NCBI GenBank assembly: GCA_964016885.1
Contig: OZ024743.1
Location: forward strand, 229,648,001 to 229,712,000
Source: Eledone cirrhosa
Lineage: Eukaryota
Direction: 5' to 3'
DNA: 64,000 nucleotides
Position 1 is the first letter of the stretch. Each line of letters begins with the position of its first letter. Of the stretch, positions 1,979 through 63,852 are shown one piece after another. A program made the translations under genes and the position numbers. Below the pieces are notes generated by a model. The model made no database searches and was not told where the DNA came from. It saw nothing but the letters and a program-made list of their open reading frames with translations.

Positions 1979-2012
1979 GTGGTCTTTCCCATCTTTTCCA
2001 CTCCTTTTCAAC

Positions 2013-4448: not shown

Positions 4449-4691
4449 ATTAAGGGTGGAAAACTGGGAGAGGGTACTTGCCCTGGTGGTCAGGGCCACT
4501 GTGGTCTTTTAAATGGGCTTTCTCCACAAATGTCCCTTGGAAGTTTCCCCCTTATTGGGGAATTTTTCTTTGTTATTTTATTTCAACCTCTGTTTTTTTA
4601 CACGCAGAAATGCCCATTTGTACCGTCCTGTATTGTCCTGTACTGTCCTTAATGTCTACTTTATGTGAACCCTTGTGGTTAATAAAGAAAA

Positions 4692-4737
<46 letters not shown>

Positions 4738-4739
4738 GT

Positions 4740-8689: not shown

Positions 8690-10914
8690 ATTCCTTGAAT
8701 CTCAGTCATTGATGTTGGTTAACTGGAAAGTCCGTTGGATTGAATATCAAGCCACTACCTGCAGCCTCAGATATTCAGGACGTATCGGAGGGTTCTTGCT
8801 GTTCCAAGCAAGCATGCCTTTTGAAGCGTTCCAAAAAGCGTGAAGGGGTCGATTTTCTTTAACCATCCCTGGAAACCTTTGGAGATAGTCCCCAGTGCGC
8901 CTATGACAATCGGGATCACTTTGACTTCATGGCAGTTCCAAATCCTTTTCACCTCCCACTTTAGGTCCTGGTATCGGTTAATTTTCTCCCTCTCCTTCTC
9001 TTGCACTCTCGTGTCGAACGGGCAGGCCACATCCACAATCAGGCACGATCTTTTTTCTTTGTCCACAACCACCAGGTCAGGTCTATTGTGTTCCAGTTTT
9101 TTGTCCGTCTGTATCCTAAAATCCCACAGCACCTTCACCTGACTGTTCTCCATCACCGCCTCTGGCCTATGCTCATACCATTTCTCAGAATGTGGTAGAT
9201 TGTTTACTTTGCACAGGTGCCAGTGGATCACCCTGCCTATCACATCGTGTCTCCAGCCCTTATAGTGGGTCTGGGCTAGGTGTTTACACTCGGACACAAT
9301 GTGAGCCACAGTCTCCTCTCTCTCTCCACAGATCCTGCACAGTGGGCTAGCCTCCTCCTTGTTGATATGGTGCTTCAACCACTTCGTTTTGAGGGCCTGC
9401 TCCTGCGCAGCCATTAGCATTCCTTCTGTAGCCTTTTTGAGGTCTCCTCTTCTCAACCAGTTCCATGTCTGTTTATCTCTAAATTCAGTTTTCTCAAAGA
9501 AGGTACTATGAAGGGATTTTCCCTTAAGGCTGCTCTTCCTCCTTGATGTTATTTCCTCCTTGGACATCCCCTGGCCTACTGTCCCCTCCTTCAGTACAGT
9601 TCTGAGCATTGGCTCCTTACTATAGCTCACGTATTTGTATAGGTTGTTTTTCTCCATCTGAACACAGTCCTCTATGCTGATAAGACCTCTTCCACCCTCA
9701 GATCTCCTTAGGTAGAGTCTATCGACATCACTCCTCTTGTGGAACATGTTGTAGATAGTCAATAGCTTCCTAGTCTTCCTATCCATTTCTTTTTGTTCAG
9801 CAACATTCCATCTCAGAATTCCCGCACTGTACCTAATAATAGACACAGCTCGGGAATTTACTGCGCTTATGGCATTTCTGCTGTTCAGATGTGACTTCAA
9901 TACGCTCCTTACTCTCCGAATGTATTCAGTTCTTAACAATTCCTTCATTTTTTTGTTCTTTATACCATCAGCCTCCAGAACGCCTAAATACTTGTATCCT
10001 TCCTCAGAGTCAATTTCCTTTATCATCTCACCTGTTGGTATCTGGATCCCGTTACTTCTGCTCAACCTACCCCTCTTCATCACAATGACTCCACATTTAC
10101 CAATACCAAACTGCATACATATATCACTGCTGAAAATACGGACAGTGTCAACAAGCACATCCAACTCCTTCTCACTTTTCCCGAAGAGCTTAAGATCGTC
10201 CATGAAGAGGAGGTGATTGATGGTAAGCTCTCCCCTTCCCAACTTATATCCTGCTCTCACTTTTCGCAGCATAATGGTCAAGGGCATCAGGGCAAGGACA
10301 AACAACAGAGGGGACAGGCTATCTCCCTGGAAGATACCTCTCTTGATCTTCACGCTTCCCAAGGATACTCCAGTTGATGTCAACTCTGTCTCCCAGGACC
10401 CCATACTCTTGCCCAGCAACTGTCTGATGTTATCTGCCACCCTGAAGACCTCCAGGCTTTTGGTGATCCAGGAATGAGGCACCATGTCAAATGCCTTTCT
10501 GTAGTCTATCCATCCCATGGCAAGATCAGTGTGTCTCCTCTTGCAATTCCCCATTACCATCTTATCAATAAGCAACTGGTCCTTTGTACCACGTGACTTC
10601 TTTCGGCATCCTTTCTGTTCGTCCGGTAACAAGTTGTTTGTGTGGAGGTGATGGTAGATTTCCTCAGACACAATGCTCGTCAACAGTTTCCACATTACGG
10701 GCAGACATGTGATAGGTCTATAGTTGGTAACATCATTACCCTTGATTCGGTCTTTCATTATCAGAACTGTGGTACCTTTTGTCAACCACTCTGGCACCTC
10801 ACCCGACACCAAGCAGTCATTGAACATGGCCGTCAGCTTCGGGTGGAGGGATGTTAAATGTTTAATCCAATACCCCTGCACACCATCTGGGCCTGGTGAT
10901 TTCCAGTTGGTTAG

Positions 10915-10916
<2 letters not shown>
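8690..10916 (-). mobile_element. R4/Dong-clade RLE LINE, copy 2, 5'-truncated, inserted in a (TAA)n microsatellite
   Basis: (TTA)n on both sides (8639-8690 and 10917-10993); uninterrupted reading frame; Dong elements are known to target TAA repeats. Confidence 0.92.
8767..10881 (-). CDS. Reverse transcriptase + CCHC zinc finger + restriction-like (PD-D/ExK) endonuclease, 704 aa, N-terminally truncated
   Basis: GIFQGDSLSP, FMDD, CRICG..HIVSEC, RHD, RPDLVVVD..IVDVACP..EKINRY. Confidence 0.92.
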   Translation of the reverse strand: MQGYWIKHLTSLHPKLTAMFNDCLVSGEVPEWLTKGTTVLIMKDRIKGNDVTNYRPITCLPVMWKLLTSIVSEEIYHHLHTNNLLPDEQKGCRKKSRGTKDQLLIDKMVMGNCKRRHTDLAMGWIDYRKAFDMVPHSWITKSLEVFRVADNIRQLLGKSMGSWETELTSTGVSLGSVKIKRGIFQGDSLSPLLFVLALMPLTIMLRKVRAGYKLGRGELTINHLLFMDDLKLFGKSEKELDVLVDTVRIFSSDICMQFGIGKCGVIVMKRGRLSRSNGIQIPTGEMIKEIDSEEGYKYLGVLEADGIKNKKMKELLRTEYIRRVRSVLKSHLNSRNAISAVNSRAVSIIRYSAGILRWNVAEQKEMDRKTRKLLTIYNMFHKRSDVDRLYLRRSEGGRGLISIEDCVQMEKNNLYKYVSYSKEPMLRTVLKEGTVGQGMSKEEITSRRKSSLKGKSLHSTFFEKTEFRDKQTWNWLRRGDLKKATEGMLMAAQEQALKTKWLKHHINKEEASPLCRICGEREETVAHIVSECKHLAQTHYKGWRHDVIGRVIHWHLCKVNNLPHSEKWYEHRPEAVMENSQVKVLWDFRIQTDKKLEHNRPDLVVVDKEKRSCLIVDVACPFDTRVQEKEREKINRYQDLKWEVKRIWNCHEVKVIPIVIGALGTISKGFQGWLKKIDPFTLFGTLQKACLLGTARTLRYVLNI

Positions 10917-10993
<77 letters not shown>

Positions 10994-10994
<1 letters not shown>

Positions 10995-13900
10995 GGCGAC
11001 CTACGTAGGAAATCGTATTATTGTGAGCTCCGCAAAGGTTTGTTGTTTTCAGTTGTTTATAATTATAATTATACATTGCTTTCTGAAAAGGACACTCAAA
11101 AAGATTGGGGCCTTGCGCCCAAAATTTAAACTTTTATAATTATCAAACAAAAAGTTTCTTTGAAAAAATCAGGGACGACTCACAGCTACACCAAGCAGCT
11201 GAGAGCCTTCCTCACAAATGAACACCTCAGACCAACACCACCATTGTAAATATTACTACGTTTGCCAACACTAAAAATATAAGCAGTAGCAATAATTTAA
11301 ATTTGTCTCATGCAGACATTCATTTCCCGCCATTACCAATGACTGCAGGTGTTGAAACCGCCGCTCCCACCACACCACAGTGACAACAGAAACAAAAGAA
11401 AAAATAAATTATCTCGTGACATCGAAATGGATTCACCCAGAATAGACCCTTCCACACTGAATACCACTGACGCCACCACCACCACAACTGAAACTAAAAA
11501 TAACAATAACAAAAATAACAATAACAACAACAGCAACAACAACAATGAGAATAACACCGTGTCTTTTGCCAAAGCAGCCAAAAAATGCGAAACAATCCAG
11601 GTAACTCAGGAGGAATTAGATGAAGCCAAGAGAATGGTAAAGAAAGATGGGTACAGGGTGAGCCCCCACCAAATAAAATGGAGCATCGGCGCCTAAGCAC
11701 CGTGTCTTATCGGACGATTAACATAAAATCGCGCCGAGTGGAACGGGCATCCGAGTCCCAAATCCAAAAAGCTTTGGGACATTTGTGGGCAAAAAACCCC
11801 ACATCAGACGTGGGCAGAAATATGGTGGTGGTTTGCTCTGAAAAGAGCGATTAGAATAGAGTCCATTAGGTTTAGTAAAGCTTTAGAAATAGAGAAAATA
11901 GAGCAGAGGGAGAACTAGTTAGAAAATTAGACGAGGCGCTTAACAAAGTCATCGCGACCGACGTACTTGCGGCGAAATTGGCTCTTGACCAATTCTTAAA
12001 TGCAAAGCACGAAGGCTGCGTTGTCAGAGCTAGGGTGCGTGCTCTCAGACACGAGAGGACGAAAGCCGTTCAATGGGCCCGAGTGGCGGAGGCGCGTCGT
12101 GGCAACAAAGCCACGATCCGGTCTTTAGTGGACCACGACGGGCGCATGCTACTCGATCCCGGGCAAATGTGTGAAGCATTTCAGGGACTTCGCTCAGCTG
12201 TTCGGGAGAGGCGGCGGGCCGGATCGAGGGATGCACTTTAGTGTCTACGTCGACGGACTGCCGCGGCTCTCAGCCACTGAGACGGAGTGTTGCGAAAAGC
12301 CGATAACAGCCGCTGAAGTACGGGAGGCAATGACTGGCTGCACAAGGGGTAAATCGCCTGGTTTGGATGATCTGCCCTATGAACTTTACGTACAGATGCC
12401 AGACTTGTTCGGAAGCCTCTTAGCGGATGTCTACTGCAACTGGCAACAGAACGGGAGAATTCCCAGCTCTGTGAGCCGAGGAGCGGTAGCGCTGCTGATA
12501 AAGGATCCGAACAAGTGGGATAACAGATAATTTCAGGTCCATATCTCTGCTAAACACAGAGTTCAAGATTTTGACCACGGTGCTAGCAAAGAGGTTGGCG
12601 CTTGTCGTTGGTGGTCTGGTGTGAGAGGTGCAGACATGCGGCATTCCCGACAGATCTATCCACGACACCTCCACCTCATGCGATAAATCGTGGAGAGGGT
12701 AGCTAGGGAACGTGGCACGGGTGGGTCCTTGATCAATTTTGGTCAGTCGAAAGCTTTCTATAGGGTCGATCATCGTTACCTAGCGGCAGTCCTGGGGGAG
12801 GCTGGCTTTGGGCCCGTCTACAGAGGCTGGTTCGCTGCCATACACAGCGACATCTGCTCTGTGGTGAGAGTGAACGGTCACCTTTCGGAACCGTTCAACA
12901 TCATGCGCTCGGTTCGCCAAGGATGTCCCCTCTCGTCCCTCTTGTACGTATTGACTCTCGAGCCATTACTGCGCAAACTGGAGACGTTGAGGGGGGGGGG
13001 GGGTACCGCGCGAACTAGGATGCGGTAGATCCGTGTCAGCATATGCGGACGATGTCACCGTAGTGGTGTCGAACGCCAAACACATCGAGGCGATCGGCAC
13101 TACAGTAAGAGAATACGAAGCAGTGACAGGAGCAATGATCAACCAGGAAAAGTCAGTGGGCCTGCAGCTCGGCACCTGGAGAAGCATATCCATGCCGTCC
13201 AACAGCGTTGTCGGGCGCTGGCCGGACGGACCGGTTAAATTGCTAGGGGTCTGGTTTGGTCCGGACCTCCAGACGGACAAAAACTGGGACGAGGTGACGA
13301 GCAGGCTGGCTTCTCTCACCCAGAAATGGGCGGAGAGGAAGCTATTCCTGAAAGGTCGAGCAGAGGTAGCTAACGCGTACATCGCGTCTGTCATCTACCT
13401 GACCGTCGTACCTTGTCCTAAGCCCCGCCTGACTGCGCTGGAGCGTTTGCTCTTTCGCTTTTTGTGGAAGGGACGCGCTCCGATTGTCAGGCGGTCCATC
13501 TGCTGTCAACACCCGCTACATGGAAGGCTGGGCATGCCGTGGCTGATGATGCGCAGACACGCGCTCAGGCTACGACATCTCCACCTCTTCCTCGACGGTG
13601 ATCAGGTGTGGTCGCCGTTTGCTAGACGCGCCTTTCCCCAGCTCGTCTCCTTGACGGAGCTGCAGTCCTGGGTCAAGCGAAGACCGAGAGGGAGCGGTTG
13701 GAGACTGGAATGTCTTCAGGCGCTCACAGCCCTTGACCAATCGGGCAATGTGATCGGTGGAAACTCCACCTAGGCGTTCTATAGAGGATTAGTGGAGGGG
13801 AAGAGCGACGACATACTTGGGGAAACTCTAGGCGTCGACGAAAATCAACTAGCCAATCTCTTCGGAAGAACTTTCGGGCCAAAATCCCTGGCCTGGCAGT

Positions 13901-14440
13901 GCTACCGAGGAGCTTTGCCAGTTCGGGATAAACTCTACAGGCATGGAGGTGCCGTCAGCCAAGCATGTCTGAGATGCGCGCAGGGCGACGAAACCGTCCT
14001 GCACGCACTCGTCCAGTGTCCGAGCATTGCTGACTTGTGGGTTTATGTCGAACACCTGCTGTCGCGTGTAGGACGGATCCAGCTAATAGCTGAGTCCATC
14101 GTGAGGATTGCCTCGCCCTCCTCCTTTAGCCGAGAAGGGCAGGCAGTTTTTATCTGTCTAGTGGCCATGGCGAAAGAGATAGTATGGTGGACACGTTTGA
14201 AAAGGCTGAAGACAAGCACCTACCTCTTCGGTGATGCCCTGATTAAGTTTTTCAAATTTCATTTGAAAAGGAAATTCAGAGTAGAGACGGAAGCGCTCTC
14301 TTTCCAGCATTTTGTTGAAAGATGGGTGAGAGAGGCAAGAATGTCCCGAGTGAATGGGCCTACTCTGAGTATGTGTCTGTAAATTAAAGGTGGACAACTG
14401 GGAGAGGGTACTTGCCCTGGTGGTCAGGGTCACTGTGGCT
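10994..14440 (+). mobile_element. Tx1/L1-clade LINE, copy 2 (5' UTR, ORF1 start, ~2.2 kb deletion, degenerate RT + zinc finger)
   Basis: 11170-11825 matches 1-690; joins ORF2 sequence at 11825; RT fragments 11978-14382 with AYADD and CLRCAQGDETVLHALVQC. Confidence 0.9.
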
Positions 14441-15789: not shown

Positions 15790-16068
15790 TAAGAGAGTGG
15801 GACTGGCTTTGTGCAGTGCCTTTGCTCACTATAAAAGCTTCACAGCACAGGCATTGCTTTATATCTGGAGATCTCTCTGCAGTTGTCATCACATGGTACC
15901 ATGGGCCCTGCACTATGTGTCAATAATAGTCACAAGTGTAGTCTTTGTACCAGAGTTTTCAAGTCGCTGGCTGGTCTAAAAAGTCACATTCGTTCAGCGC
16001 ATCGGTAGGGGTTCTCCTACATGGATATAAAGTAGTGGCCGTACTCGAAAACGAGTTGGCAGCCACCA
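15790..16068 (+). mobile_element. 5'-truncated copy of the non-autonomous RTE-like element
   Basis: Matches the 3' half of 44895-45502 and 58909-59518; HKCSLCTRVFKSLAGLKSHIRSAHR* remnant; (TATG)n tail. Confidence 0.8.
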
Positions 16069-16939
16069 TGTATGTATGTATGTATGTATGTATGTATGTA
16101 TGTATGTATGTATGTATGCATGTATGTATGTATGTATATCTCTCCCTCCCACTCTTATATCTCGAACGTTCTCTTCTCCCTCAAAAGTCGTCTGGAAGAT
16201 CCTCTGACATTTATAAATGTGTTTCTGTATTTAATTCATTAAAATGTGCATACCTTTGCAATAGTGTTGGGTTTTTCCAGCCTGTAAGTTAAGTAAGGAT
16301 TTCAACTAGGTTTGAATTCAAATTTTCATTTCAGTTTTAAATCACGCCTCCCCCTACACATGCACATTCATACACACATACACACATACATACATACACA
16401 CACACGCACACACATATATACATGCACACACACACATACATACACAGGCACACATACAAATACACATACGCACACACAAACACACCGACATCGTAACCTG
16501 TAAACTCAAGTGAATCAAATAATAAGGTCAGGTTGTCTTGACATCGCATAAAAACATCTGCAAGAAAATTTCGATCATTTTCAAAGCATGCATTTTTAGT
16601 TATGGGGAGCCTCATATGAAAAAAATATTATAGAAATAAATAAATAAGGATAAAAGATAACGTGGCTACATTTTAGATAATACAGTCATATATACCCGTA
16701 AAAAAACTGACTGGAGGAGATGGCGAGGCTCACACACAGCTGGATTTACCTTTGACGATGTTCTGCTTAATCAGGGCTAGCTTTAACGATAGTTCTGCTT
16801 GATCACTTGGAATATCTTTGATGATACATGCCCTTGATCTGGAGGCCAAACATTATCACCACCACAAACACCACTACCAACGCATACACACTCGACCTCC
16901 ACGACTACCACCAACAACGGCAGCGAATAACGAAGTTAT

Positions 16940-23315: not shown

Positions 23316-23371
23316 CAGCGATGAATTAGTCAAAAATAATACAGATACAATATAGACACAAACACATATAT

Positions 23372-23423
23372 ATAGTTTATCATAAATCTTTCGTTGCACA
23401 TCTGCAACATCGTCAGTGGTGTT
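23372..23423 (-). ncRNA. Hammerhead ribozyme in the PLE 3' terminal repeat
   Basis: CTGACGA-T-GTTGCA-GATG-TGCAAC-GAAA-G(A)TTTA-TGA-TAAA-CTA^; stem I imperfect (AACAC/GTGTT beyond an internal loop, extending to about 23365). Confidence 0.75.
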
Positions 23424-23648
23424 ATATTTTCCTCCTGTTGTGTTGTATGTCTACGCCATTTTTTATTCAGTCTGTCTATATATTTATTTATTTGCTTGTT
23501 TGTTTATATTATTTTGTCTTCTTTGCGCATGCGTTTGCGTGTGTGTATAGTGTTATGTTTGCTGTGTGATGGGTGACTAGTGTGTGTTTATGTGCTTGTT
23601 GTTATTGTGCTTGTGTATATATTAATTTATCTTATTTTATTTACTTAT

Positions 23649-26600
23649 TTATACTTCTCTTAGGTCAGTGTTGTTGTTATTCCATTCATTCTTTCTGTTT
23701 AGCTTTGGTCTTCAAATTTCTATTTCACTGGCCTCTCTGATTTGCCTATCTGCTGGGTCATTTCTATGTTTAGATATTATTCTAATTTCTATGTTGTCTA
23801 TGTTACCGTCATGTTGTTGTCTAGCATGTTCGTATAGTACTGACCCGTTTTTTCGTCCTTTTAGTTCCACCCAGTGTTGGTCTATCCTTTCACCTATGCT
23901 ACGAGCTGTCTCACCTATGTATGTTGTTGTCATGTTTCTAGTTTTACAGTTTATCCGGGGGTTCACCTTACATATGATACATTTCCTATTGGTACAGTGG
24001 GTTTTCTTAAAAGGGTAGGTTTTGCTGATCAGGGATTTTATGGTGGTTCCTGGCTTTTCTACCACCTTTATTTTTAAGTGGGTCTTTCTCAGGGCCTTTC
24101 TACACTGGTTAGCTAATTTCCCTCCAGGGGTGGCGTCCACAAACATAACACTCTGGTATCTCTGGTTGTCGTACCATGATGTGGCTTTCCCTATCTTATG
24201 TCTAGCCCTATCTAAGCTATTCCATGATTTGCTCCTGTATAATGGGCAAATTCCTTTCATGTTCAGTTCTATGAGGGTCTTATACTTTTCCATGGCTCCT
24301 TCGTATACTCTGACTCTGTCTCTTTGGTTGTAGCCAGAGAACTGCATGCGGTTGATGAAGTGTTGGATGTGTCTTTACATTTCTGTTGGGTCGCACATGC
24401 GGGACACATTCTTCATCACTCGTACCAAATCTGCGATCAGAATATTAAACTTAGCACTACTGGACATTGCTGAGTTTTTGAGTATCAGGTATTTGGAGGC
24501 CATGGGTTTAGCATAGTGTGAGTGGAGAATTTGGGCTCTCTCGTCTATAGTGTTAATCCAGAGTTCTGTGTCTAATACAGGTAGTCTATTATTAGGGTGT
24601 TTGGAAGGGAAGTCGATAGTTACAGTTATACTCTGGTGTATGGAATTAGCTATCTGCTGGATGCTTTCCATCGTGCTACGTTCTAAATCAAACTTGTTAG
24701 TGCTCTCTAGTGGGGGTGTTCTTATAACTATATTGATATCGTCTACATAACGAGAGTACATGGTGAGGTCTATGGAGCTTTCATTAAGGAGATCTTTAAG
24801 TCTCCTTTCCCACAATACCATGAAAAGGTTGGCAACATCACCAGCTATGCTGACGCCGATGGCTGCTCCCTCATTTTGGGTGTAGATTTTCTCATTGAAC
24901 TTAAATATGTGGCCCCTTAGGGTAGTTTTGATACTAGCCCCTATTGCATGTGCGACCATTTTTCTTACCTGATCATTGTTTTGGGGGGTCCGTATAGCTT
25001 TGGTCCACCCAATCCACCTTCCCATAGGAGTCTTTTTTGCCATTGAGGTTATGGTGAGGGGTCTACCTCTTATAGGTCTACTAGGGCAGAAACATCTAAG
25101 GTCATGGCTGTCTAGGTAGTCAGTGTCGTAGGTAAGTCTAAGTAGGAGGCCCAGTTCGTCTGTGTCGACGTCGCAGAACTCCACCTCACTCTCAATGATC
25201 ATCTCCACACATCTTTTCACAGCAAAATCAATGTTAATGGATGGGTACAGTGACACCACATCCATGCTGCCTATTATGCAGTTGGATAGGCTCCTGTTTT
25301 TGTTGCACTCACTGATTCTGCTGAGGAGGTCCTCTGTACTGTCACATACATCTGGGGACATCTTGATTATGGGGCGTATAACCATCGAGAGGAAGTAGGA
25401 GATCCTGTAGTTGCTAGCTATATTAGCTCCGCATACGGGTCTTGTTGGTGGTCCTGTTGTCGGGTCGTCGACTGTCTTGTGGTCTTTGCGGAGCCCATAC
25501 AAGGGTGGTATGCCATTGTTAGACGCCTGGAAGTTGTTGGCAGTGCGTCTGCTTGGCTTTAGGATGTCAGTCCACATCATCATGTGAGCGTTGAGGATTT
25601 TTTCTCTCCCATCGTGTGTTTGTTGTGCAACTTCGCTCGTGTTGGTGATGTGGGATTGCATAGCCTCGATGTAGTTCGGCATGCTATCTATTGACATGCT
25701 ACCAGACTTATCTGTGGGTAGACACACTACCTCACCATCCCTTGTGCGCTGCTTGAGGCTAACCAATCCTTCTACAGGTTTCCTCCCAAGTTGTTGGGCC
25801 TCTGGTCTGCTCTGTCTCTTAGTATACCTGTCTACTATTTGTCTAATCTTATTTCTAGCTATGGTGAACTGTGCCTCTGTCTCGTCATCTATCTGTTGTG
25901 GTATGCAAACTCTTTTATTAAAGGGTAATCTCGTAGGATAGATATTACCCATCTTATATGTTTTGTCAGCTGGGTTGAAAAATAGTTTCTCTAAGGGGTT
26001 GTCATTATATCTATCGTCATAGTTGTGTGTGTTGCTATTGTTGTTATCAGGGTGGTTGTTGTTGTTTCTATCATTAGCATTATTATTATTGTTATGATTG
26101 CTAGATGTATTGTTGTTTACTTCACCGTTATTGTTGTTGTTGTTACTGTTATTTCTACCATTGTGGTTGTTACTTTTATTATGTTTCTTGTTTTTGTTGT
26201 GTCTATCATTGATGTTGCTACATGTACTATTTCCATTATTACCACTGTGGTTATTGTTGTTGTTGTTCGTATTGTTACCGTTATTACTACTGTGGTCGCT
26301 GTTGCTGTGTCTGTGGTTAATGTTTCTATTATTATTATTATTGTGGTTGTTGTTGTTCTGTTTATCGCTAGTATTATTACCATTATCACTATTTCTCACT
26401 TTCCTGCTATTGTTATGGTTATGGCTGTTATTTCTATACCCACAGTTATTGTTTATATTACTACTACCGTTATTATTGTTGTTGTTGTTTACCTTTGCAT
26501 TCCAACGTATTTTTGTGAAACACTTTTCCAGCTTCGTTTTGCACTCCATAGGGTTAATCTTTTTGTAGATGGCAAATTTTGGTGGTAACTGTAGGATTTG

Positions 26601-27230
26601 TTGTTCTTGTTCACTGATTAAAGTGTTCCCATAGATATTTACTGTGTGGTCATTGGTAAATTCTTCCGGTAGTTTTACATCAGTCATACAGATATTGTCG
26701 ATGTTATCTGGGTATTTTTGAGAATATTCGATTTTCCTTTCTTGTAGTTTTTTCTTGTTCATCCATTCTAATTTCTTCTTGAAATGCCTATTGCATTCGT
26801 TTCGAGCGTATTTCGTTTCACGTCGGATGGCGCTCATGAAGTTATCTCTCTCGTTTGCTGTGATGAGATTTCGGATTTCCTTACCGTTAATGCGTTTCTG
26901 TCTGTAGAGTGCGTTGACTTTTGTGTATGTTGTTCTTTTCATATTAACTGTTATTGTGTGTTTTAGTCGTTCGGCTTGTGTTTTGTTCAATAATAAATTA
27001 TTTACTTGTTTTGATATGTTTGTTGTGTATGTTTTGGAGGAAACACAGTGTTTTAAGAAGCGGATTTGTTCTGTTGTTATTGTAGTGTTTATATAACAGA
27101 AAACAGTGTCTTTCAATAACCTTTCAGCTTGGCACAAGCTAATGCCGTAGCGGCGATGAATTAGTTTTGCGAGGTTTTTTATATGAAATCGTGTGTCGAA
27201 ACAAATATTGTTATACTTGGGGAGGGTCAT
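23649..27230 (-). pseudogene. PLE polyprotein (RT + Cys-rich linker + GIY-YIG) in one frame with in-frame TAA (24375) and TGA (23712)
   Basis: TDKSG, RPVCG, SMDVVSLYPS, GAAIG, RYVDD, LPVLD, HYAKPM; CTNRKCIIC; YIGETARS, REA, LNRKNEW after the TGA; first GIY strand appears deleted. Confidence 0.88.
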
Positions 27231-27506
27231 ATTTGTGTAATATTGCCAGAATTAATAACAGAACACACTCACTGTTTGGTTGGTTTTCGCTTCTCGCTGT
27301 CTTTTATATCGGTAATCTAACTTACTCGGTCCTCAATGTTGCCATTGACTGACCGACGGTCAAAAATAATACAGATACAATATAGACACAAACACATATA
27401 TATAGTTTATCATAAATCTTTCGTTGCGAGAAGCGAAAACCAACCAAACAGTGAGTGTGTTCTGTTATTAATTCTGGCAATATTACACAAATATGACCCT
27501 CCCCAA

Positions 27507-27596
<90 letters not shown>

Positions 27597-37642: not shown

Positions 37643-37690
<48 letters not shown>

Positions 37691-37696
<6 letters not shown>

Positions 37697-38198
37697 ATAC
37701 TTGGGGAGGGTCATATTTGCGTAATATTGCCAGAATTAATAACAGAACACACTCACTGTTTGGTTGGTTTTCGCTTCTCGCTGTCTTTTATTATATCTGC
37801 GATCTAACTTACTCGGTCCTCAATGTTGCCATTGACTGACCGGCGGTCAAAAATAATACAGATACAATATAGACACAAACACATATATATATATATAGTT
37901 TACATAATTTACGTAAATCTTTCGTTGCAACGAAAGATTTATGTAAATTATGTAAACTATATATATGTGTTTGTGTCTATATTGTATCTGTATTATTTTT
38001 GACCGCCGGTCAGTCAATGGCAACATTGAGGACCGAGTAAGTTAGATCGCAGATATAATAAAAGACAGCGAGAAGCGAAAACCAACCAAACAGTGAGTGT
38101 GTTCTGTTATTAATTCTGGCAATATTACGCAAATATGACCCTCCCCAAGTATAACAATATCTGTTTCGACACACGATTTCATATAAAAAACCTCGCAA

Positions 38199-38202
<4 letters not shown>
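37691..38202. mobile_element. Fold-back (palindromic) non-autonomous derivative of the 23.3-27.5 kb PLE terminus
   Basis: Two ~235-bp inverted arms with no spacer, axis at 37927/37928 (TTTCGTTG|CAACGAAA); (TA)n on both sides. Confidence 0.9.
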
Positions 38203-38266
<64 letters not shown>

Positions 38267-39074: not shown

Positions 39075-39238
39075 AGGGTTGGACGCCATGCTTTGACGCA
39101 TAGAGTTACGGCCCTTGCCATTCTGAGTTCAAATCCGGCCGAGGTTAACTTTGCCTTTCATCCTTAAGTCGATAAAATAAAGTACCAGTAATGCACTGGG
39201 TAATTGCTGGCCTTATGCCAAAAGTAGAAACAATTATT
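39075..39238 (+). repeat. tRNA-derived SINE, 5'-truncated, with a probable target-site duplication TATTCATTCA
   Basis: B-box GAGTTCAAATCC; body shared with four or more other copies in the window. Confidence 0.75.
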
Positions 39239-39799
39239 CATTCAAAGTAATCCAACTTATTTTACAAACGCAGACATTCCTTTAATATAGTTAAGATACA
39301 AATTTGTACGTAAATTTCGTTGATAATATTATATTTGACCATCCCTGTTCATGGGTGTTAGGCTTAACTAGTCGTCGCCCGTTTTAACACCATCACATTG
39401 GTGTCTTTACTAGAGCCCATTCTGTTGCAAGCACTAGGTCCAGGTCACTCCGGTCTGGAGATGATCACATCTCTTCTAACCAGACATGTCGAACTCGTAA
39501 AGATTCATGGCCAATGTTCTTTCCCCCTTCATTAAGCCGTTAAAACAAAACGAAAATATTACACGGTATTTTGATTGATGATCTACTGATTCTTCCACTC
39601 CACTGCTCATTTGAGTCAGCAATATTAGATAGCAGTCAAATAAATTGTAATTTTAAAGTAAGAGCCAGCGTTTTCTTGTATTTTATGTCTGAGGCGTTAA
39701 TCCTTTCTTTCCTCAGTCCATCAAAGTTTTAAGCTATGGATACTAGATTATTGGGAAAATTATAAGAAATAGTTATATATATATATAAAGGACGAACAT

Positions 39800-39860
<61 letters not shown>

Positions 39861-39863
<3 letters not shown>

Positions 39864-40044
39864 ATTGTTTCTACTATTGGCACAAGGCCAGCAATTAACC
39901 AGTACATTACTGGTACTTTATTTTATCGACCCCGTAAGGATGAAAGGCAAAGTTAACCTCGGCGGGATTTGAATTCAGAATGGCAAGAGCCGTAACTCTA
40001 TGCGTCAAAGCATGGCGTCCGACCCTCTACCGATACTGCCAATT
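39861..40044 (-). repeat. tRNA-derived SINE, same family, inverted relative to the 39075 copy
   Basis: Reverse complement matches 39075-39238 and 60015-60200. Confidence 0.75.
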
Positions 40045-42513: not shown

Positions 42514-44642
42514 TTATGGAGGATAAGTATCTGAAAGTGTGTTAAGTTTATATGAGCTGGAAAGCAGGTGTGATTTCATGTGTGGGCAACTGGTAAAAAT
42601 TTCCGTCTTTGTGTTCAGGCAGGTCTTTGGTGATTTAAGATTTTGCAATCTCCAAAATTTTTCATTTATGCAGAGCGTGCATTTTCTTGTTCCTCTAGCA
42701 TATTTTTTAGATTGGTTCAAAATTGACCAATCTAGTTTATATTGGATGCCTTGGTCTTTCAAATCCCAGATTCTGCTAGCCAGAGCTGTTGTAAATCTTT
42801 TTTCTGGATGTCGAAAGGATGCGACATGTGAGTAATAACGCGTTTTGAATCTGTCTTGCGTCATACCCACATATCGTTCACTGGTGACTGGATGGTTGTT
42901 GCTGATGGTTGTCACATTAGCCGCATATACAATGGCTTTGGTGTTGCATTTACCTTGTAATGGGCATTCACTTTTGATTCTACAGGAGCAAGTTTGATTT
43001 TCTCTAGGTGAAATTTTGTTGAGGATATAGGACTTAATAAGGGGACCGCAGGAATAGCTAATTTTAACACAGTTTCTGTTAAAGATCTTATAGTATCTAT
43101 GTGTTCTAGGGAAATGTTTATCTAGGAGTGCTAGGAATTTTTTGCCTACATTAGTTTTAACTGCTAGAGAGTAGGGGGGTGTGAACCAGATTATTTTTCT
43201 TTTCCTATTTTTATGTTTAATAGAGTTAGTGTAGTTAGGTATGTATTTAATCGGTTCGCTAAAGCCGCTATTTTGGAGGGCTATATTATAGTAGGGGGAT
43301 GCCTTATTGAAAATAGCTTCTGATGAAGAGAGGGTGGAGATCCTACGGCTAATATTAGGGATAAGGTTTTTAAAAACTATAGGTGGATGGCAAGATCCTT
43401 TATTTATATATTTTAAGTTTTCATTAGGTTTATGGTATGGTTTATAAGAAGCAGTAGGCAAATCTAAGTTTATATCTAGGAAATCTACGTTGGACAGGTT
43501 AGTGTCAATAGTAATTTTAAGATTAAAACTAGCAAAGGTTTTTATTAAGACTTTCCTTAATCTATCTAAGTTGTGGCCTATGGTGGTATGGGAAAGTATT
43601 AAACCATCATCGCGATAAAGCCCCAAAATATGGTTGGAAATTTTTCTTTAAGTGTATGTAAGAGGAATAGGCCGACCAGATCACAAACCTCGGCACTGTC
43701 ATAAGAGCCCATTGAGACATCGAATGGGTTCTCTGGGTTAGATATTTTTACCCAAGTGTCATTATCATTAAAAAGAAGAGTGTTCCTAGCATGCAAGATT
43801 ACATCCTCTTCAATATCGGAGATATTAGTGAACCCTCTAGCGAAATTTAAAGCTTTCACTAAAAGGGTCTGAGTAATAGATGGGTAGAAATCTACGATAT
43901 CAAATTGGGTGAATCTAGAACTGATTTTGTTTTTAATATTATTAAACCAATGTACTACGGAAGAGCTATTTATCCATTGGAGTAATTTAGACTTACTTCT
44001 AATATGTGTATTTAATTTATTTAAAATTTTTTTACTGGCAAGACCAATATCAGTCTTAGCAGGGTTGATTAATCTACAACTAGGGCGATTAATAAAGTCG
44101 GGTTTATGATCTTTAAGGGTGATATACGCAGAACGTTTAGCAAGTTTTTCTGTCCTATTATCTATTTTTAAAGAAACAGCTAATTCTTTAGCTTCCTTAT
44201 TTATATTATGGTACGTATTTATATTAGCTATTTGGTATTTAGAGGTGATATTATCTATTAATAGTTGGTCGTGTAAATTATTATTAACTTCATATAGGTT
44301 TTTAGTTTCATCTGAGAAGATGAACTTATTATTAGAAGATTTGAAAGTAGAAATATCATTAGATAATTTGGATTGAAAGGGGTTAGAGTACTTACGAAAA
44401 TTGATGTTGTTAACTAGGTCTAATTCAAAGGCGGTCATATCTTTTACTCTTTGCGGGTATTTATGAGTATTGATGTCAAAATGTTCCGTAGAATCCGTGT
44501 TAAATTGACCATCGAGAATCAAAGCTTTCCATCTCATTCTTTTAACAAACTTCTCTACTTTGTCTATCGGTATTTTCGTGTAGAGAGTATTAGAAGGTGT
44601 TGGGATATTCTTTACAGAGTAGTCCAAAGGGTATTTGTCCAT
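42514..44642 (-). pseudogene. PLE RT + GIY-YIG endonuclease, one frameshift near 43625
   Basis: ITLKDHK, CRLINP, FDIVDFYPSI, MGSYD, GLYRDDGL, DFLDI, HPP, CSC..CPLQGKC, IVY..YVGMT..FKTRYYSH, CTLCINEK, LNTKTE. Confidence 0.92.
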
Positions 44643-44894
44643 ATTCGGTATTGGTTTAAAATCCTATGACTGGAGAGTGCTCGACTTAAAAAGGGCTGGA
44701 AGGTGCCAATCTCATAACGATGTAGAATATGCTACAATCATTCCCTTGGGAGCTTTATAAGTATTGAAATTTCAGTTAGAAACAGAAAAGGTCATAGAAA
44801 TGAAGAGTGCTCTATGTCAGTATCAGAGCAAAATGAAACTAAAATAATAAATCTGTGAACGCAGAAGTAAATATTTCGAAAAAGGTTACGCACT

Positions 44895-45502
44895 ATATGG
44901 TGGCTGCCAACTCGTTTTCGAGTACGGCCACTACTTTATATCCATGTAAGAGAACCCCTACCGATACGCTGAACAAGTGTGACTTTTTAGTCCAGCCAAC
45001 GACTTGAAAACTGGTACAAACACTACACTTGTGACAATTATTGACACAGTGCTGGGCCCATGGTACCATGTGACGACAAGTGCAGAGAGATCTCCAGATA
45101 TAAAGCAATGCCTGTGCCGTGAAGCTTTTATAGTGAGCAAAGGCACTGCACAAAGCCAGTCCCACTCTCTTAACCAAGATGATATTTACCAAAAAGAAGA
45201 ACAAGTCAACATCATTGGATACCATCAGGGTTGCAGGTGTTATATCAGAGTTTTCCTTCTCCTAGAATTCTGCCTTGACAAAGGCTAAGGGGTCATCTCT
45301 CCCGGTGATTTTGGATGGCCATTGACTCTTAAGAGCTCCTTTTCCCTTTGACAGGTTTTGTTTTTAGTCCTGAAGGATGTCCAAAGTCACCCTCCTCACC
45401 AAGAAACCTTGGTGGGGTTGCCAGTTTAGTCGCCAACGACCCGACCATGAGACAGGTTGTACTGGGATACATGTTACCAGTAGCACCAACTGGTGACCTG
45501 AC
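44895..45502 (-). mobile_element. Non-autonomous bipartite RTE-like retroelement (~610 bp)
   Basis: RTE-5'UTR-like motifs GGCGACTAAA and CTAGGAGAAGGAAAACTCTGA; terminal zinc-finger remnant; 3' hairpin CTCG-AAAA-CGAG; near-identical to 58909-59518. Confidence 0.75.
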
Positions 45503-45799: not shown

Positions 45800-45908
<109 letters not shown>

Positions 45909-45918
45909 AACCAGTAGG

Positions 45919-46012
45919 ACCCCGACAGCTGAGCTCAAGCCGTTTCGACGGCTAATTCTGGACTAAATGAAAATTTATCCTGGTATTTAAATAGCCGATC
46001 TTCTCAAGGGGT
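45919..46012 (-). ncRNA. Mirror copy of the U3:A8 hammerhead
   Basis: Reverse complement of 47255-47348 with perfect stem I ACCCC/GGGGT. Confidence 0.75.
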
Positions 46013-47254
46013 AATTCCATATATGGTCAAAGTGATTGTCAAAAATCAGTAGTAATTCAGTGGTTGCAAATTAGTAGGGGAGATGGTGGCTAAACCTGCC
46101 AGTAGGAGAAAGAGGGGAGGGGGTGGAGTAGACCCAATCAAGCGTTGGTAGTGCCAGCTACAGCTGGGCATGAGGTCAAAGAAGATACAGGGGAGGGGGA
46201 GGGGGAGGAAGTCGGAACGGTAGGTAGAACAATGGGGGGTAGAAATATATAGAAAAGCAAATAAGTGTAAAGAAGAAAGTAAAGTAAATTAAATTCTACG
46301 ACCTAGGTGTCAGGCTATTGTTAGGCTAGAATAAAATAAAGAAAGAAAGAAGTAAATAAATAAATAAATAAATGAATAACGAAAAAAGTAAAAGAACTAG
46401 GTGGGACGAAATAGGCCAGGACCCTTTTAAGAGGTATAAGTACGTAAATGATACGGTGACGGGTCAACAAAAGGGGCCAAAATACTAAAGAGACTACCAC
46501 GAAATACACAATAAAGGTTTCCATCCCGGGCCAGCAACGACCCAGTGCAGCAAAGTGAACTTGTACGAGATAGTAATTCTGAGTCCCGAGAAAAATATAT
46601 ACTAATGCTAACTCTAAAGGATCTAAGACAAGCTACATGAAAGTTCGTACGAAATAAAGGTAGAATACGGAGAAAATTCGGGACTCAGAATTACTATCTT
46701 GTACAAGTTCACTTTGCTGCACTGGGTCGTTGCTGGCCCGGGATGGAAACCTTTATTGTGTATTTCGTGGTAGTCTCTTTAGTATTTGGGCCCCTTTTGT
46801 TGACCCGTCACCGTATCATTTACGTACTTATACCTCTTAAAAGGGTCCTGGCCTATTTCGTCCCACCTAGTTCTTTTACTTTTTTCGTTATTTATTTATT
46901 TATTTATTTCTTTACTTCTTTCTTTCTTTATTTTATTCTAGCCTAACAATAGCCTGACACCTAGGTCGTAGAATTTAATTTACTTTACTTTTTTCTTTAC
47001 ACTTATTTGCTTTTCTATATATTTCTACCCCCCATTGTTCTACCTACCGTTCCGACTTCCTCCCCCTCCTCTTCCCCTGTATCTTCTTTGACCTCATGCC
47101 CAGCTGTAGCTGGCACTACCAACGCTTGATTGGGTCTACTCCACCCCCTCCCCTCTTTCAACTACTGGCAGGTTTAGCCACCATCTCCCCTACTAATTTG
47201 CAACCACTGAATTACTACTGATTTTTGACAATCACTTTGACCATATATGGAATT

Positions 47255-47348
47255 ATCCCTTGAGAAGATCGGCTATTTAAATACCAGGATAAATTTTCAT
47301 TTAGTCCAGAATTAGCCGTCGAAACGGCTTGAGCTCAGCTGTCGGGGT
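47255..47348 (+). ncRNA. Type I hammerhead ribozyme with U3:A8 variant core
   Basis: ATCCC-TTGAGAA-GA(T)CGGCTA..TAGCCGTC-GAAA-CGGCT-TGAGCTC-AGCTG-TC^GGGGT. Confidence 0.75.
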
Positions 47349-47438
47349 CCTACTGGTTCCTATTACCCACTCTACTACCTCAAGTATTGAGTACTTTGGT
47401 GCGTTATGGTCCACCTGGTTCCTTACCACATTTCCTTC

Positions 47439-47970
<532 letters not shown>

Positions 47971-48003
47971 TATATATATATGTGTGTGTATGTATGTGTG
48001 TGA

Positions 48004-48548: not shown

Positions 48549-48752
48549 CCTACGGAACTAGCTGTTGAAAAGGCAAGTGCTCAGCCGTCAGGTCCAGACT
48601 TTCCTATTCTCTCCTTTTCTGTATATATATATATATATATATGTATAACAAAGGAATTGTGGTAAGGAACCAGATGGACCATAACGCACCATAACTGTCC
48701 AGAAATAGCCGTCGAAACGGCTTGAGCTCTGACGTAGGTGTCATACTTTTTC

Positions 48753-48755
<3 letters not shown>
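48545..48755. mobile_element. Rearranged fragments of the U3:A8-hammerhead element family
   Basis: acaaaggaattgtggtaaggaaccagatggacc (inverted end) joined to gtccagaaatagccgtcgaaacggcttgagctc. Confidence 0.7.
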
Positions 48756-48790
<35 letters not shown>

Positions 48791-53002: not shown

Positions 53003-53006
<4 letters not shown>

Positions 53007-53202
53007 AAGTATGAATCCCGACGGCAGAGCTCAAGCCGTTTCGACGGCTATTTCTGGACTATTTATGTCCAGAAATAGCCGTCGAAACGGCTTGAGCTCA
53101 GCCGTCAGGGTCATAATATTTCCTATTTCCCACTCTACTACCCTAAGTATTGAGTAATCTGGTTCGTTATGATCCATCTGATTCCTTACCACAATTCCTT
53201 TG

Positions 53203-53290
<88 letters not shown>

Positions 53291-58544: not shown

Positions 58545-58901
<357 letters not shown>

Positions 58902-58908
58902 TACATAC

Positions 58909-59518
58909 ATGGTGGCTGCCAACTCGTTTTCGAGTACGGCCACTACTTTATATCCATGTAGGAGAACCCCTACCGATGCGCTGAACGAGTGTGACTTTTT
59001 AGTCCAGCCAGCGACTTGAAAACTCTGGTACAAACACTACACTTATGACAATTATTGACACATAGTGCTGGGCCCATGGTACCATGTGACGACAAGTGCA
59101 GAGAGATCTCCAGATATAAAGCAATGCCTGTGCCGTGAAGCTTTTATAGTGAGCAAAGGCACTGCACAAAGCCAGTCCCACTCTCTTAACCAAGATGATA
59201 TTTACCAAAAAGAAGAACAAGTCAACATCATTGGATACCATCAGAGTTGCAGGTGTTATATCAGAGTTTTCCTTCTCCTAGAATTCTGCCTTGACAAAGG
59301 CTAAGGGGTCATCTCTCCTGGTGATTTTGGATGGCCATTGACTCTTAAAAGCTCCTTTGCCCTTTGACAGGTTTTGGTTTTAATCCTGCAGGATGTCCAA
59401 AGCCACCCTCCTCACCATGAAACCTTGGTGGGGTTGCCAGTTTAGTCGCCAACGACCCGACCATGAGACAGGTTGTACTGGGATACATGTTACCAGTAGC
59501 ACCAACTGGTGACCTGAC
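58909..59518 (-). mobile_element. Non-autonomous bipartite RTE-like retroelement, full-length copy in (TATG)n
   Basis: Same termini as 44895-45502; TACA repeats on both sides. Confidence 0.78.
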
Positions 59519-60014: not shown

Positions 60015-60200
60015 ATTGGCAGTATTGGTAGAGTTTCGGACGCCATGCTTTGACGCATAGAGGTACGGCCCTTGCCATTGTGAGTTCAAATCCCGCCGAG
60101 ATTAACTTTGCCTTTCATCCTTACAGGGTCGATAAAATAAAGTACTAGTAATACACTGGGATAATTGCTGGCCGTGTGCCAAAAGTAGAAACAATTATAT
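60015..60200 (+). repeat. tRNA-derived SINE
   Basis: TGGCAGTATTGG A-box-like, GAGTTCAAATCCC B-box, shared body; another copy starts at 63940. Confidence 0.75.
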
Positions 60201-63296: not shown

Positions 63297-63550
63297 TATA
63301 TACAATGATATTAAATAAATGGAAACTATATTTATAAAACCATATTCTATTATATATATTTCAAGGGTACCAAAATTTTGGTACCCTTGAAATATATATA
63401 ATAGAATAAATATGGTTTTATAAATATAGTTTCCATTTATTTAATATCATTGTATATAATACCCCAGAAAACTTGTCGAGTGCTCTGAATCAGTTATAAA
63501 CATTTATATTTGTTGAACTACCAACAAATTGTATATCCCTTCTGCTTACA
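63297..63550. mobile_element. Fold-back PLE-like terminus (third family), axis 63375/63376
   Basis: ~78-bp arms around TTTCAAGGGTACCAAAA|TTTTGGTACCCTTGAAA; flanked by (TA)n. Confidence 0.8.
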
Positions 63551-63576
63551 TATATATATATATATATATATATATA

Positions 63577-63846
63577 CTATCCGGGAGCTTCCAGCAGACA
63601 TGGTCGTATTCTTTTAAGGGTATGTCAATATTTGTTTATAAAACTGATCTGTATTATATTTTATCTGATAAAAGCGCACCATAATTTGCTTTGATATCCT
63701 TGAAATATGTATAATGAAATAAATATGGTTTTATAAATATAGTTTCCATTTGTTAATATCGTATTTTTACTCTAAATATTTGTTGAGTGCTTTATATCAA
63801 TTATAAAAATATTTGCTTGTTGTATCCAACAAATTAAATATAACTT

Positions 63847-63852
<6 letters not shown>
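63577..63852 (+). mobile_element. Non-folded diverged copy of the same family with a decayed hammerhead (63655-63720)
   Basis: CTGATAA-AAGCGCACC..GATATCCTT-GAAA-TATGTA; downstream sequence matches 63381-63550. Confidence 0.6.

What the first reader, a model, noticed from the sequence alone, without database searches (positions are those of the whole stretch)
37691..38202. Fold-back elements of three unrelated families all turn around inside hammerhead stem II
Seen: this spacer-less palindrome has its axis in GTTG|CAAC, which is stem II (GTTGCA-GATG-TGCAAC) of the hammerhead at 23372-23423. The 5' inversion junction of the full PLE (27427, TTTCGTTGC|GAGAAG) is at the same spot. A second family does the same at 53063 and 48698, and a third at 63375. 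Known: PLEs carry terminal hammerheads and often have inverted 5' ends. Inference: copying runs past the self-cleavage site, through stem III and GAAA, then snaps back at stem II. A cleaved linear RNA should start at the cleavage site, so an uncleaved or circularised (retrozyme-like) template is implied. The ribozyme hairpin would then act as a self-priming switch that yields a class of palindromic non-autonomous elements.
Basis: partly seen in the sequence, partly recalled or inferred. Interest (0 to 1): 0.85.

Follow-up and report, generated by a model that had tools for sequence, protein, structure and literature searches.

The report
Retrotransposon palindromes mark capped transcription starts
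Thousands of short palindromes in this animal genome are head-to-head pairs of Penelope-like retrotransposon ends that carry an extra G at one fixed point, likely because two copying reactions ran off the capped start of the element's RNA, a start predicted to lie inside a loop of its hammerhead ribozyme in one family but 90 bases upstream of it in another.

Summary
The four sites are in the sequence as described, but the shared rule and the snap-back mechanism are not supported. The focal palindrome (family 1, Neptune-like) is a one-off, and only about 1-4% of 6,099 family-1 arms end in stem II. Family 3 ends pile up about 90 nt upstream of its ribozyme. Family 2 (Hydra-like) does show the effect: 15,236 palindromes, and 84 of 100 arms end in the 3' half of stem/loop II.

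Those arms never copy the 5' strand of stem II. Every palindrome has one short and one tailed arm (28 of 28), and either arm can reach further (12:12), which argues against one self-priming cDNA. The boundary is an initiator-like A, 29-31 nt below a TATA-like box, both inside loop II. Arms ending there carry a non-templated G (72 of 100 target-joined ends), the mark of a copied cap. Family 3 shows the same mark at its own initiator.

Best reading: two cDNAs, one per target strand, run off a capped 5' end and are joined. A minor end class sits at the scissile bond. No RNA data were available. How long copies pass this point (circle, multimer or jump) is open.

The parts
37689..37927 (-). Family-1 palindrome, short (untailed) arm; outer end in (TA)n
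   Evidence: matches element positions 223 to about 1
37928..38203 (+). Family-1 palindrome, tailed arm (43 nt longer at the outer end)
   Evidence: matches element positions 1-266
37925..37930 (.). Axis: self-complementary hexamer from the loop II/stem II 3' strand; likely microhomology join of two cDNA ends; no second family-1 copy found in the genome
23316..27427 (-). Full-length family-1 PLE (Neptune-like RT + GIY-YIG ORF in two frames, Asn-rich insert); 5' end at -5 in stem II
27426..27511 (+). Inverted short arm of the full element, joined by 2-nt microhomology
23370..23416 (-). Family-1 hammerhead-like motif: canonical core and 6-bp stem II; stem I does not pair next to the predicted cut because 4-6 TA units intervene, so activity is doubtful
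45904..47440 (.). Family-2 long palindrome (686-nt arms, 88-nt spacer); counterexample, both arms run through the ribozyme
47255..47348 (+). Complete family-2 type I hammerhead: U3-A8 core at 47260, stem II 47270-47275 with 47313-47318, G12 at 47321, predicted cut after 47343
47274..47281 (+). TATA-like box at the start of loop II, 29 nt upstream of the boundary A (29-31 nt in other subfamilies); promoter role inferred
47301..47306 (+). Initiator-like motif in loop II; its A (47303, position -18) is where arms end with an extra G; predicted transcription start
47360..47363 (+). Outer end of short arms (+41); inferred first RT start
   Evidence: loose ends at 47363
47436..47442 (+). Outer end of tailed arms (about +121); inferred second RT start
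   Evidence: loose ends at 47437
53003..53204 (.). Family-2 short palindrome: short arm ends at -19, tailed arm at -17, few filler bases between
48648..48756 (.). Family-2 insertion: short arm reaches -17, partner is tail only; the shorter-tailed arm is the one that goes further 5'
63297..63550 (.). Family-3 palindrome with axis in loop II (63375|63376); atypical for this family
63576..63850 (+). Family-3 arm that begins at the family's initiator-like A, 89 nt upstream of the hammerhead core (63665)
47487..47971 (.). Family-1-related palindrome with axis downstream of the ribozyme; counterexample

Best explanation
The palindromes are head-to-head pairs of Penelope-like element ends in (TA)n, each with one short and one tailed arm, and they likely form when both cut target strands prime a cDNA, the two cDNAs run to the capped 5' end of the RNA or break off earlier, and repair joins their ends. 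SHOWN in sequence: two fixed outer ends, one of each per insertion; a hard inner boundary at -18 (minor one near -22) in family 2 and about 90 nt upstream of the core in family 3; an extra G at that boundary; an initiator-like motif there in both families and a TATA-like box 29-31 nt upstream in family 2; varied junctions with 0-4 nt overlap or filler. INFERRED: the boundary is the transcription start and the G is the copied cap; the two outer ends are the two RT start sites; in family 2 the 5' copy of the ribozyme is transcribed without its catalytic 5' strand and so cannot cut; a minor class of templates starts at the scissile bond. The focal locus 37691-38202 is likely a rare family-1 case in which both cDNAs broke off near stem II and annealed through a self-complementary hexamer.
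For: Boundary: 84 of 100 family-2 arms end at -3..-24, 0 at -25..-55 (first 100 anchors of contig C1); depth in contigs of 3 public runs (2 samples, 1 study) rises about 10-fold across the bins 47288-47329. Extra G: read in cDNA sense, the base after -18 is C in 4,723 arms and T in 690. Where the arm joins (TA)n directly, 254 arms have a C or G there against 1 at a control position, and 72 of the 100 listed are C (P 1e-5). Centres with the extra base on both arms occur. An extra G is the cap mark at full-length L1 5' junctions (PMC11702581, passage). Two cDNAs: 28 of 28 pairs are short + tailed, and the further-reaching arm is short in 12, tailed in 12, tied in 4; in 2 of 34 pairs (C1:13301062 and C1:6761925) the arms carry different subfamily variants. 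Purified PLE protein extends both strands from two internal RT starts and is a predicted dimer (PMC11167929). Independent family: about 21 of 79 family-3 arms end within 14 nt of its initiator, 1 in stem II; 215 arms of one subfamily end at that A, and 53 of 100 listed have the C. A TATA plus initiator in pLTRs was noted in PMC3846280; the TSS lies in the pLTR in PMC2377424 and PMC8557442. Cleavage-end class: 9 of 33 target-joined ends fall on +23 among 15 positions, 0 on +22 (counted by eye; P 2e-4); full-length L195 starts at +22 and L215 at the start site.
Against: No RNA evidence at all. G after -18 is also common overall (3,958); by eye most of it is the partner arm's own base or one subfamily's native base, and about half of the 100 listed C rows can also be read as the partner's base, so the raw 4,723 overstates the cap class. 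The TATA-like box varies between subfamilies and overlaps stem II. Family-2 ends spread from -3 to -24 and the mode of the longer arm is -17, so end trimming must be assumed. Loop II can form an inner hairpin whose 3' strand covers -15..-22. RTs can add an untemplated C at uncapped ends too (recalled). No start site was found for family 1. The +23 peak could partly be CpG decay or a pause at a G run. Samples are from the start of contig C1, and several counts were made by eye.
Confidence: 0.8

Rival explanations
1. One reading: one cDNA runs through an uncleaved or circular RNA and snaps back on the stem II hairpin, in all three families.
For: Four window junctions lie in stem/loop II; family-2 axes cluster there; arms usually share subfamily (identical in 20 of 34 pairs against 21% of random pairs); self-priming was proposed in PMC3846280.
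Against: Arms never copy the 5' strand of stem II; the untailed arm reaches further in 12 of 24 untied pairs, and at 48697 its partner is tail only; the extra G; families 1 and 3 do not comply.
Confidence: 0.04
2. RT stalls in the last paired strand of the folded ribozyme (stem II or an inner hairpin in loop II), and the stalled cDNAs are then joined.
For: Ends are confined to the 3' half of the ribozyme and stop near -22; an inner hairpin is predicted over -15..-22; about 20 of 100 tailed arms end between +36 and -1 (by eye).
Against: A stall does not explain a position-specific extra G (254 against 1), nor family 3, whose arms cross the whole ribozyme and stop at an initiator with the same mark.
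Confidence: 0.08
3. The 5' end at -18 is real but is made by processing or recapping, not by transcription initiation.
For: Sequence alone cannot tell a start from a processed end; the TATA-like box is variable.
Against: The initiator-like motif at the exact base in two families, the 29-31 nt spacing, and the G bias fit initiation more simply.
Confidence: 0.05
4. The palindromes are a MITE-like non-autonomous family that amplified as a unit, or they are assembly artefacts.
For: Some centres recur; copy number is very high.
Against: 25 distinct centres in 28 pairs, and recurring centres occur on different subfamily backgrounds; contigs of public runs show the same depth step and strand-switch joints at 47303 and 47313 (these runs may be the assembly's own sample).
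Confidence: 0.03

Closest known systems
Hydra-clade Penelope-like elements (Craig et al. 2021, PMC8557442; read: section 11 and passages)
   Same: Families 2 and 3: C-terminal GIY-YIG, CxCX5C linker, hammerhead in the pLTR, insertion into (TA)n; family 2 also DKT and an RW(R/K) motif.
   Different: The sections read do not describe short palindromes, a fixed 5' boundary or a promoter within the ribozyme; the tail is ascribed there to endonuclease resolution, here to two RT starts. Unit length about 3.6 kb against 'generally <3 kb'.
Poseidon element of Anolis in vitro (Frangieh et al. 2024, PMC11167929; read: parts 1-2 of 4, main text and start of methods)
   Same: Two internal RT starts that explain the tail, both strands extended, predicted dimer, uncleaved RNA as main template, AT-rich targets.
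   Different: It proposes multi-copy mRNA, does not derive the inverted arm from the second cDNA in the parts read, and found no RNA ends at the cut; here a minor end class lies at the cut and the major class at a capped start.
Adineta vaga Penelope elements (Arkhipova et al. 2013, PMC3846280; read: passages)
   Same: Inverted pLTRs with palindromes at the junction, tail at one end, TATA plus initiator in the pLTR, Asn-rich inserts.
   Different: Explained there by self-priming on an antisense template; the extra G at a sense initiator and the symmetric arm lengths here argue against that for these families.
L1 twin priming and cap-derived 5' G (PMC11702581; read: passages)
   Same: Both target ends prime cDNA; ends are joined by NHEJ or microhomology; extra G at full-length 5' junctions.
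   Different: In L1 the two cDNAs copy adjacent, mostly non-overlapping parts of the RNA; here both copy the same 60-140 nt, which gives a palindrome.
Non-LTR retrozymes (bioRxiv 10.64898/2026.07.22.740005; read: abstract, introduction, start of methods)
   Same: Small non-coding PLE derivatives with type I hammerhead.
   Different: Retrozymes are head-to-tail tandems with whole ribozymes; these are head-to-head, carry half ribozymes and look like dead-end products.
Retroviral minus-strand strong-stop DNA (recalled, no call)
   Same: A short cDNA primed near the 5' end that runs off the cap.
   Different: Target-primed, two at once, and integrated; no strand transfer was shown here.

Membership tests
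Penelope-like element (EN+) | Single ORF with RT and C-terminal GIY-YIG | tested here: met
   ORFs read by eye show the YxDD-type RT core and GIY-YIG motifs; Pfam found no family in the 4 window ORFs tested; no tree built
Penelope-like element (EN+) | pLTRs in partial tandem and inverted arrangement, tail at one end | tested here: met
Hydra clade (family 2) | DKT motif, RWK-like motif, CxCX5C linker, no CCHH cysteine pair, CxxC and CxH around E/N | tested here: met
   L191 ORF read against PMC8557442 section 11; the RWK motif reads RWR
Hydra clade (family 2) | Generally under 3 kb | tested here: not met
   tandem unit 3,568 bp (C14 loci); the paper says 'generally'
Hydra clade (family 3) | CxCX5C linker, CxxC and CxH, (TA)n targets; N-terminal motifs | tested here: inconclusive
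   C-terminal motifs present in L291 and L306; N-terminus missing in those copies
Hydra or Neptune clade | Placement in the clade by RT phylogeny | not tested
   no reference sequences were fetched
Neptune clade (family 1) | CX2-5CxxC linker between RT and EN | tested here: met
   ORF 23712-24374(-); the GIY half of the nuclease looks deleted in this copy
Type I hammerhead (family 2) | Three stems around the core and an NUH triplet | tested here: met
   42 distinct copies matching a motif that presupposes the core and stem II: stem I 5/5 pairs in 31, stem III 5/5 in 33, NUH triplet in 42
Type I hammerhead (family 2) | Canonical C3-G8 core pair | tested here: not met
   38 of 42 have U3-A8 and 4 have C3-A8 (the pattern allowed C/U at 3 and A/G at 8); that U3-A8 is a working natural variant is recalled, and my search found no passage for it; no Rfam hammerhead hit in the window
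Type I hammerhead (family 3) | Canonical core, stems I and II, palindromic stem III | tested here: met
   56 motif matches, 50 with C3-U4-G5-A6-N7-G8-A9 (a few belong to other families)
Type I hammerhead (family 1) | Stem I paired next to the cut | tested here: not met
   4-6 TA units lie between triplet and stem I partner in 50 of 50 copies matched
Hammerhead (all families) | Self-cleavage | not testable with these tools
   only indirect: end excess at +23 in family 2
Non-LTR retrozyme | Head-to-tail tandem units, each with a complete type I hammerhead | tested here: not met
   palindromes are head-to-head and lack the 5' half
MITE or propagating non-autonomous element | Many copies of one fixed structure | tested here: not met
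   25 centres in 28 pairs; focal centre unique

The most novel reading that the evidence does not exclude
A Penelope-like family has put its polymerase II core promoter inside loop II of its own hammerhead, so the 5' copy of the ribozyme is transcribed as a harmless half and only downstream copies cut. Start and cut define a 41-nt terminal redundancy. Reverse transcription begins 60-140 nt from the cap and gives strong-stop cDNAs, which end as palindromes unless the template is a ligated circle or the enzyme jumps to the cut 3' end. This would give PLE hammerheads a function and make the pLTR a U3-R-U5 analogue built by target priming. It fits that long arms pair with long arms (45 of 100) and that full-length copies pass the start a second time (19 of 21).
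Probability: 0.3. Interest if true: 0.87.

Novelty: new variant of a known kind. Interest (0 to 1): 0.7.

Why it matters
How Penelope-like elements make their inverted ends and one-sided tails, and what their hammerheads do, are stated as open in PMC8557442 and PMC11167929. This genome holds over 15,000 frozen intermediates that give, at base resolution, the likely RNA 5' end, both RT starts and a trace of ribozyme cutting, without any RNA data. The same reading can be applied to any PLE-rich genome. It favours two target-primed cDNAs on a capped sense RNA over the published antisense self-priming idea. It also means thousands of short hairpin-forming inserts are by-products of transposition, which matters for repeat annotation: they would be misfiled as MITEs or microRNA precursors. 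Searches that found no such description: (open-access library only; subscription papers, Repbase notes and supplements were not seen).

Tried and rejected
Rfam scan: no hammerhead hit, only simple-repeat microRNA matches. Pfam: 0 families in 4 ORFs. The first BLAST with the palindrome as query suggested many family-1 stem II junctions, but the query biased it; anchored samples removed the effect. Search for a family-1 start site: ends are spread over 1.4 kb, and only 2-3 of 100 end at -150..-205; none found. Strand-transfer scar: in arms that run on, the base at -19 is C in 8 and T in 12, against 10 and 13 at -20, so no support for a jump at the cap. Free folding did not give the hammerhead fold for any family (z 0.4 to -1.5). 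No RNA holder listed; runs were contigs, which cannot show RNA ends. One search used a reference copy with a variant base at -17 and under-called ends; one search corrects it. One search used 20 of 22 and 47 of 100; recounts are 19 of 21 and 45 of 100. One search printed 26 of 29 loci (3 missed the start-codon pattern); these are top BLAST hits of one subfamily, 4 of them duplicated. In one search, two reference copies (L255, L268) were mis-called for lack of a close partner, and part was cut from view. No earlier scan notes exist. Cervera 2014 (PMC4209133, passages) has nothing on promoters or inversions under my terms. Window coordinates of some motifs were read by eye.

Full report
Setting and numbering. 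The window is G000:C4:229648001-229712000 in a 3.0-Gb genome rich in (TA)n. It holds three Penelope-like (PLE) families. Positions are relative to G12 of each hammerhead core (0); for family 2 this is window 47321. An 'arm' is one element end, read from its outer end in (TA)n inward to its 5' junction.

The observation. All four sites exist. The focal palindrome has 203-nt perfect arms and its axis at 37927|37928 lies in the 3' strand of family-1 stem II. The full element 23316-27427(-) ends at -5. The family-2 and family-3 junctions are at -13 to -19, in loop II. The window also has three insertions that break the rule: 45904-47440, 47487-47971 and 63576-63850.

Family 1 is ordinary. The exact centre occurs twice in the genome and the second place has no family-1 sequence. 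Thirty of 30 loci have an intact stem II and 0 of 30 downstream-anchored arms end there. A filter for ends at -1..-18 passes 60 of 6,099 arms, 1.2-4.5% after correction, and some of these are internal deletions. Ends are spread over at least 1.4 kb. Three of 30 5'-UTR-anchored loci end within -1..-24, so a weak excess of two- to three-fold is possible. Many copies carry a loop variant that makes a self-complementary hexamer at this spot, enough for two cDNA ends to anneal and give the observed centre (inference). Stem I cannot pair next to the predicted cut in 50 of 50 copies matched, so this ribozyme may not cut.

Family 2 shows the effect. There are 38,075 core anchors, 15,236 palindromes with a gap of at most 45 nt and 6,199 arms that cross all of stem II. 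In the first 100 anchors of contig C1, 84 arms end at -3..-24, none at -25..-55 and 16 further up (P 4e-18 against family 1). Contigs of three public runs show a tenfold depth step at the same place; they may come from the assembly's own sample. The ORF has the Hydra-clade motifs. The ribozyme has three stems, an NUH triplet, a 37-39-nt loop II and a U3-A8 core pair.

It is not a snap-back. A snap-back on stem II needs the 5' strand at about -46..-51 to be copied, and it is not. Each of 28 pairs has one arm ending at +41 and one at about +121. A single cDNA would have to start at +121 and always reach further 5' than its copy. The short arm reaches further in 12 pairs, the tailed arm in 12, with 4 ties. 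At window 48697 the partner is tail only. Arms usually share subfamily, but 2 of 34 pairs carry different variants. Centres are varied: 25 in 28 pairs. This fits two cDNAs, one from each target strand, as the purified Anolis protein makes from two internal starts (PMC11167929).

The boundary looks like a capped start. The A at -18 sits in an initiator-like motif, with a TATA-like box 29-31 nt upstream at the start of loop II. In cDNA sense the next base is a non-native C in 4,723 arms and T in 690. G is also frequent (3,958), mostly from the partner arm or one subfamily (by eye), and about half of the listed C rows can be the partner's base, so I used a partner-free test. Where the arm joins (TA)n, 254 arms have C or G at this position against 1 at position -9, and 72 of 100 listed are C. 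Some centres have the extra base on both arms. In L1 such a G marks the cap (PMC11702581). A transcript that starts at -18 lacks the core's 5' strand, which would explain simply why copying crosses the scissile bond.

Family 3 is the control. It has 39,175 anchors, Hydra-type C-terminal motifs and a canonical ribozyme. Of 79 arms, about 21 end within 14 nt of an initiator-like A about 90 nt upstream of the core, 1 ends in stem II, about 20 end in between and about 36 run on. At that A, 53 of 100 listed arms have the extra C, several joined straight to (TA)n. The boundary follows the initiator, not the ribozyme. Here the template holds a whole ribozyme and is still mostly uncut, in line with PMC11167929.

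A trace of cutting. Among 33 family-2 tailed arms joined directly to (TA)n between +26 and +12, 9 end at +23, the first base after the predicted cut, 5 at +24 and none at +22 (by eye; P 2e-4). One full-length copy starts at +22 and one at the start site. CpG decay or a pause at the G run could add to this peak.

What stays open. Long arms tend to pair with long arms (45 of 100; P 4e-7 by insertion), and 19 of 21 full-length copies pass the start point a second time against 16 of 100 first-round arms (biased sample). Their templates seem to have no 5' end there. A ligated circle, an uncut multimer or a template jump would each do. I found no cap scar in arms that run on.

Comparison and verdict. 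Inverted 5' copies, junction palindromes, one-sided tails and pLTR promoters are known (PMC8557442, PMC3846280, PMC2377424; passages read). I found no description of a cap-marked inner boundary, of the short-plus-tailed rule as evidence for two cDNAs, or of a promoter in hammerhead loop II (open-access library only, supplements not read). All RNA-level steps are inferred from DNA. Confidence 0.8, interest 0.7, new variant of a known kind.

Noticed in passing
window 42514-44663 (-): A further PLE ORF in two frames with Hydra-type motifs (RWK, CxCX5C, C-terminal GIY-YIG); its pLTR and family were not assigned.
   Followed up: no
window 25995-26600 (-): Long Asn-rich insert in the family-1 ORF upstream of the RT, like the inserts described in Adineta vaga elements (PMC3846280).
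   Followed up: partly
window 23316-23330: The 3' end of the full family-1 element lacks about 190 nt of pLTR: position 69 is joined to the last bases of the tail.
   Followed up: no
family 2 and family 3 upstream regions, e.g. window about 47197-47205; L301, L303, L309, L313: An octamer-like motif lies upstream of the predicted starts in both families; the motif name is recalled.
   Followed up: no
L025, L030: Family-1 variant whose loop II and part of stem II are deleted between two direct 4-nt repeats, leaving a minimal hairpin.
   Followed up: no
L043-L046; G000:C14:25394258-25401011: Head-to-tail tandem arrays of family 1 (4.1-kb unit) and family 2 (3.57-kb unit), candidate sources of multimeric or doubly cut RNA.
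   Followed up: partly
L324, L325, L328: Other canonical type I hammerheads of unassigned families turned up in these loci.
   Followed up: no
window 391-4448 (+), 12991-14382 (+), 4656-7159 (-), 8767-10917 (-): Nested non-LTR retrotransposon remains: an endonuclease + RT type with a gag-like ORF, and an RT + restriction-like endonuclease type (labels by eye).
   Followed up: no
window 15790-16135, 44894-45172, 58843-59188; 39075-40043, 60015-60159: Two more dispersed repeats of 150-350 nt at 92-96% identity, not identified.
   Followed up: no
listings (e.g. G000:C1:4947010): Some family-2 centres contain long A/T homopolymer fillers or short templated repeats of the arm end, typical of end-joining synthesis.
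   Followed up: no
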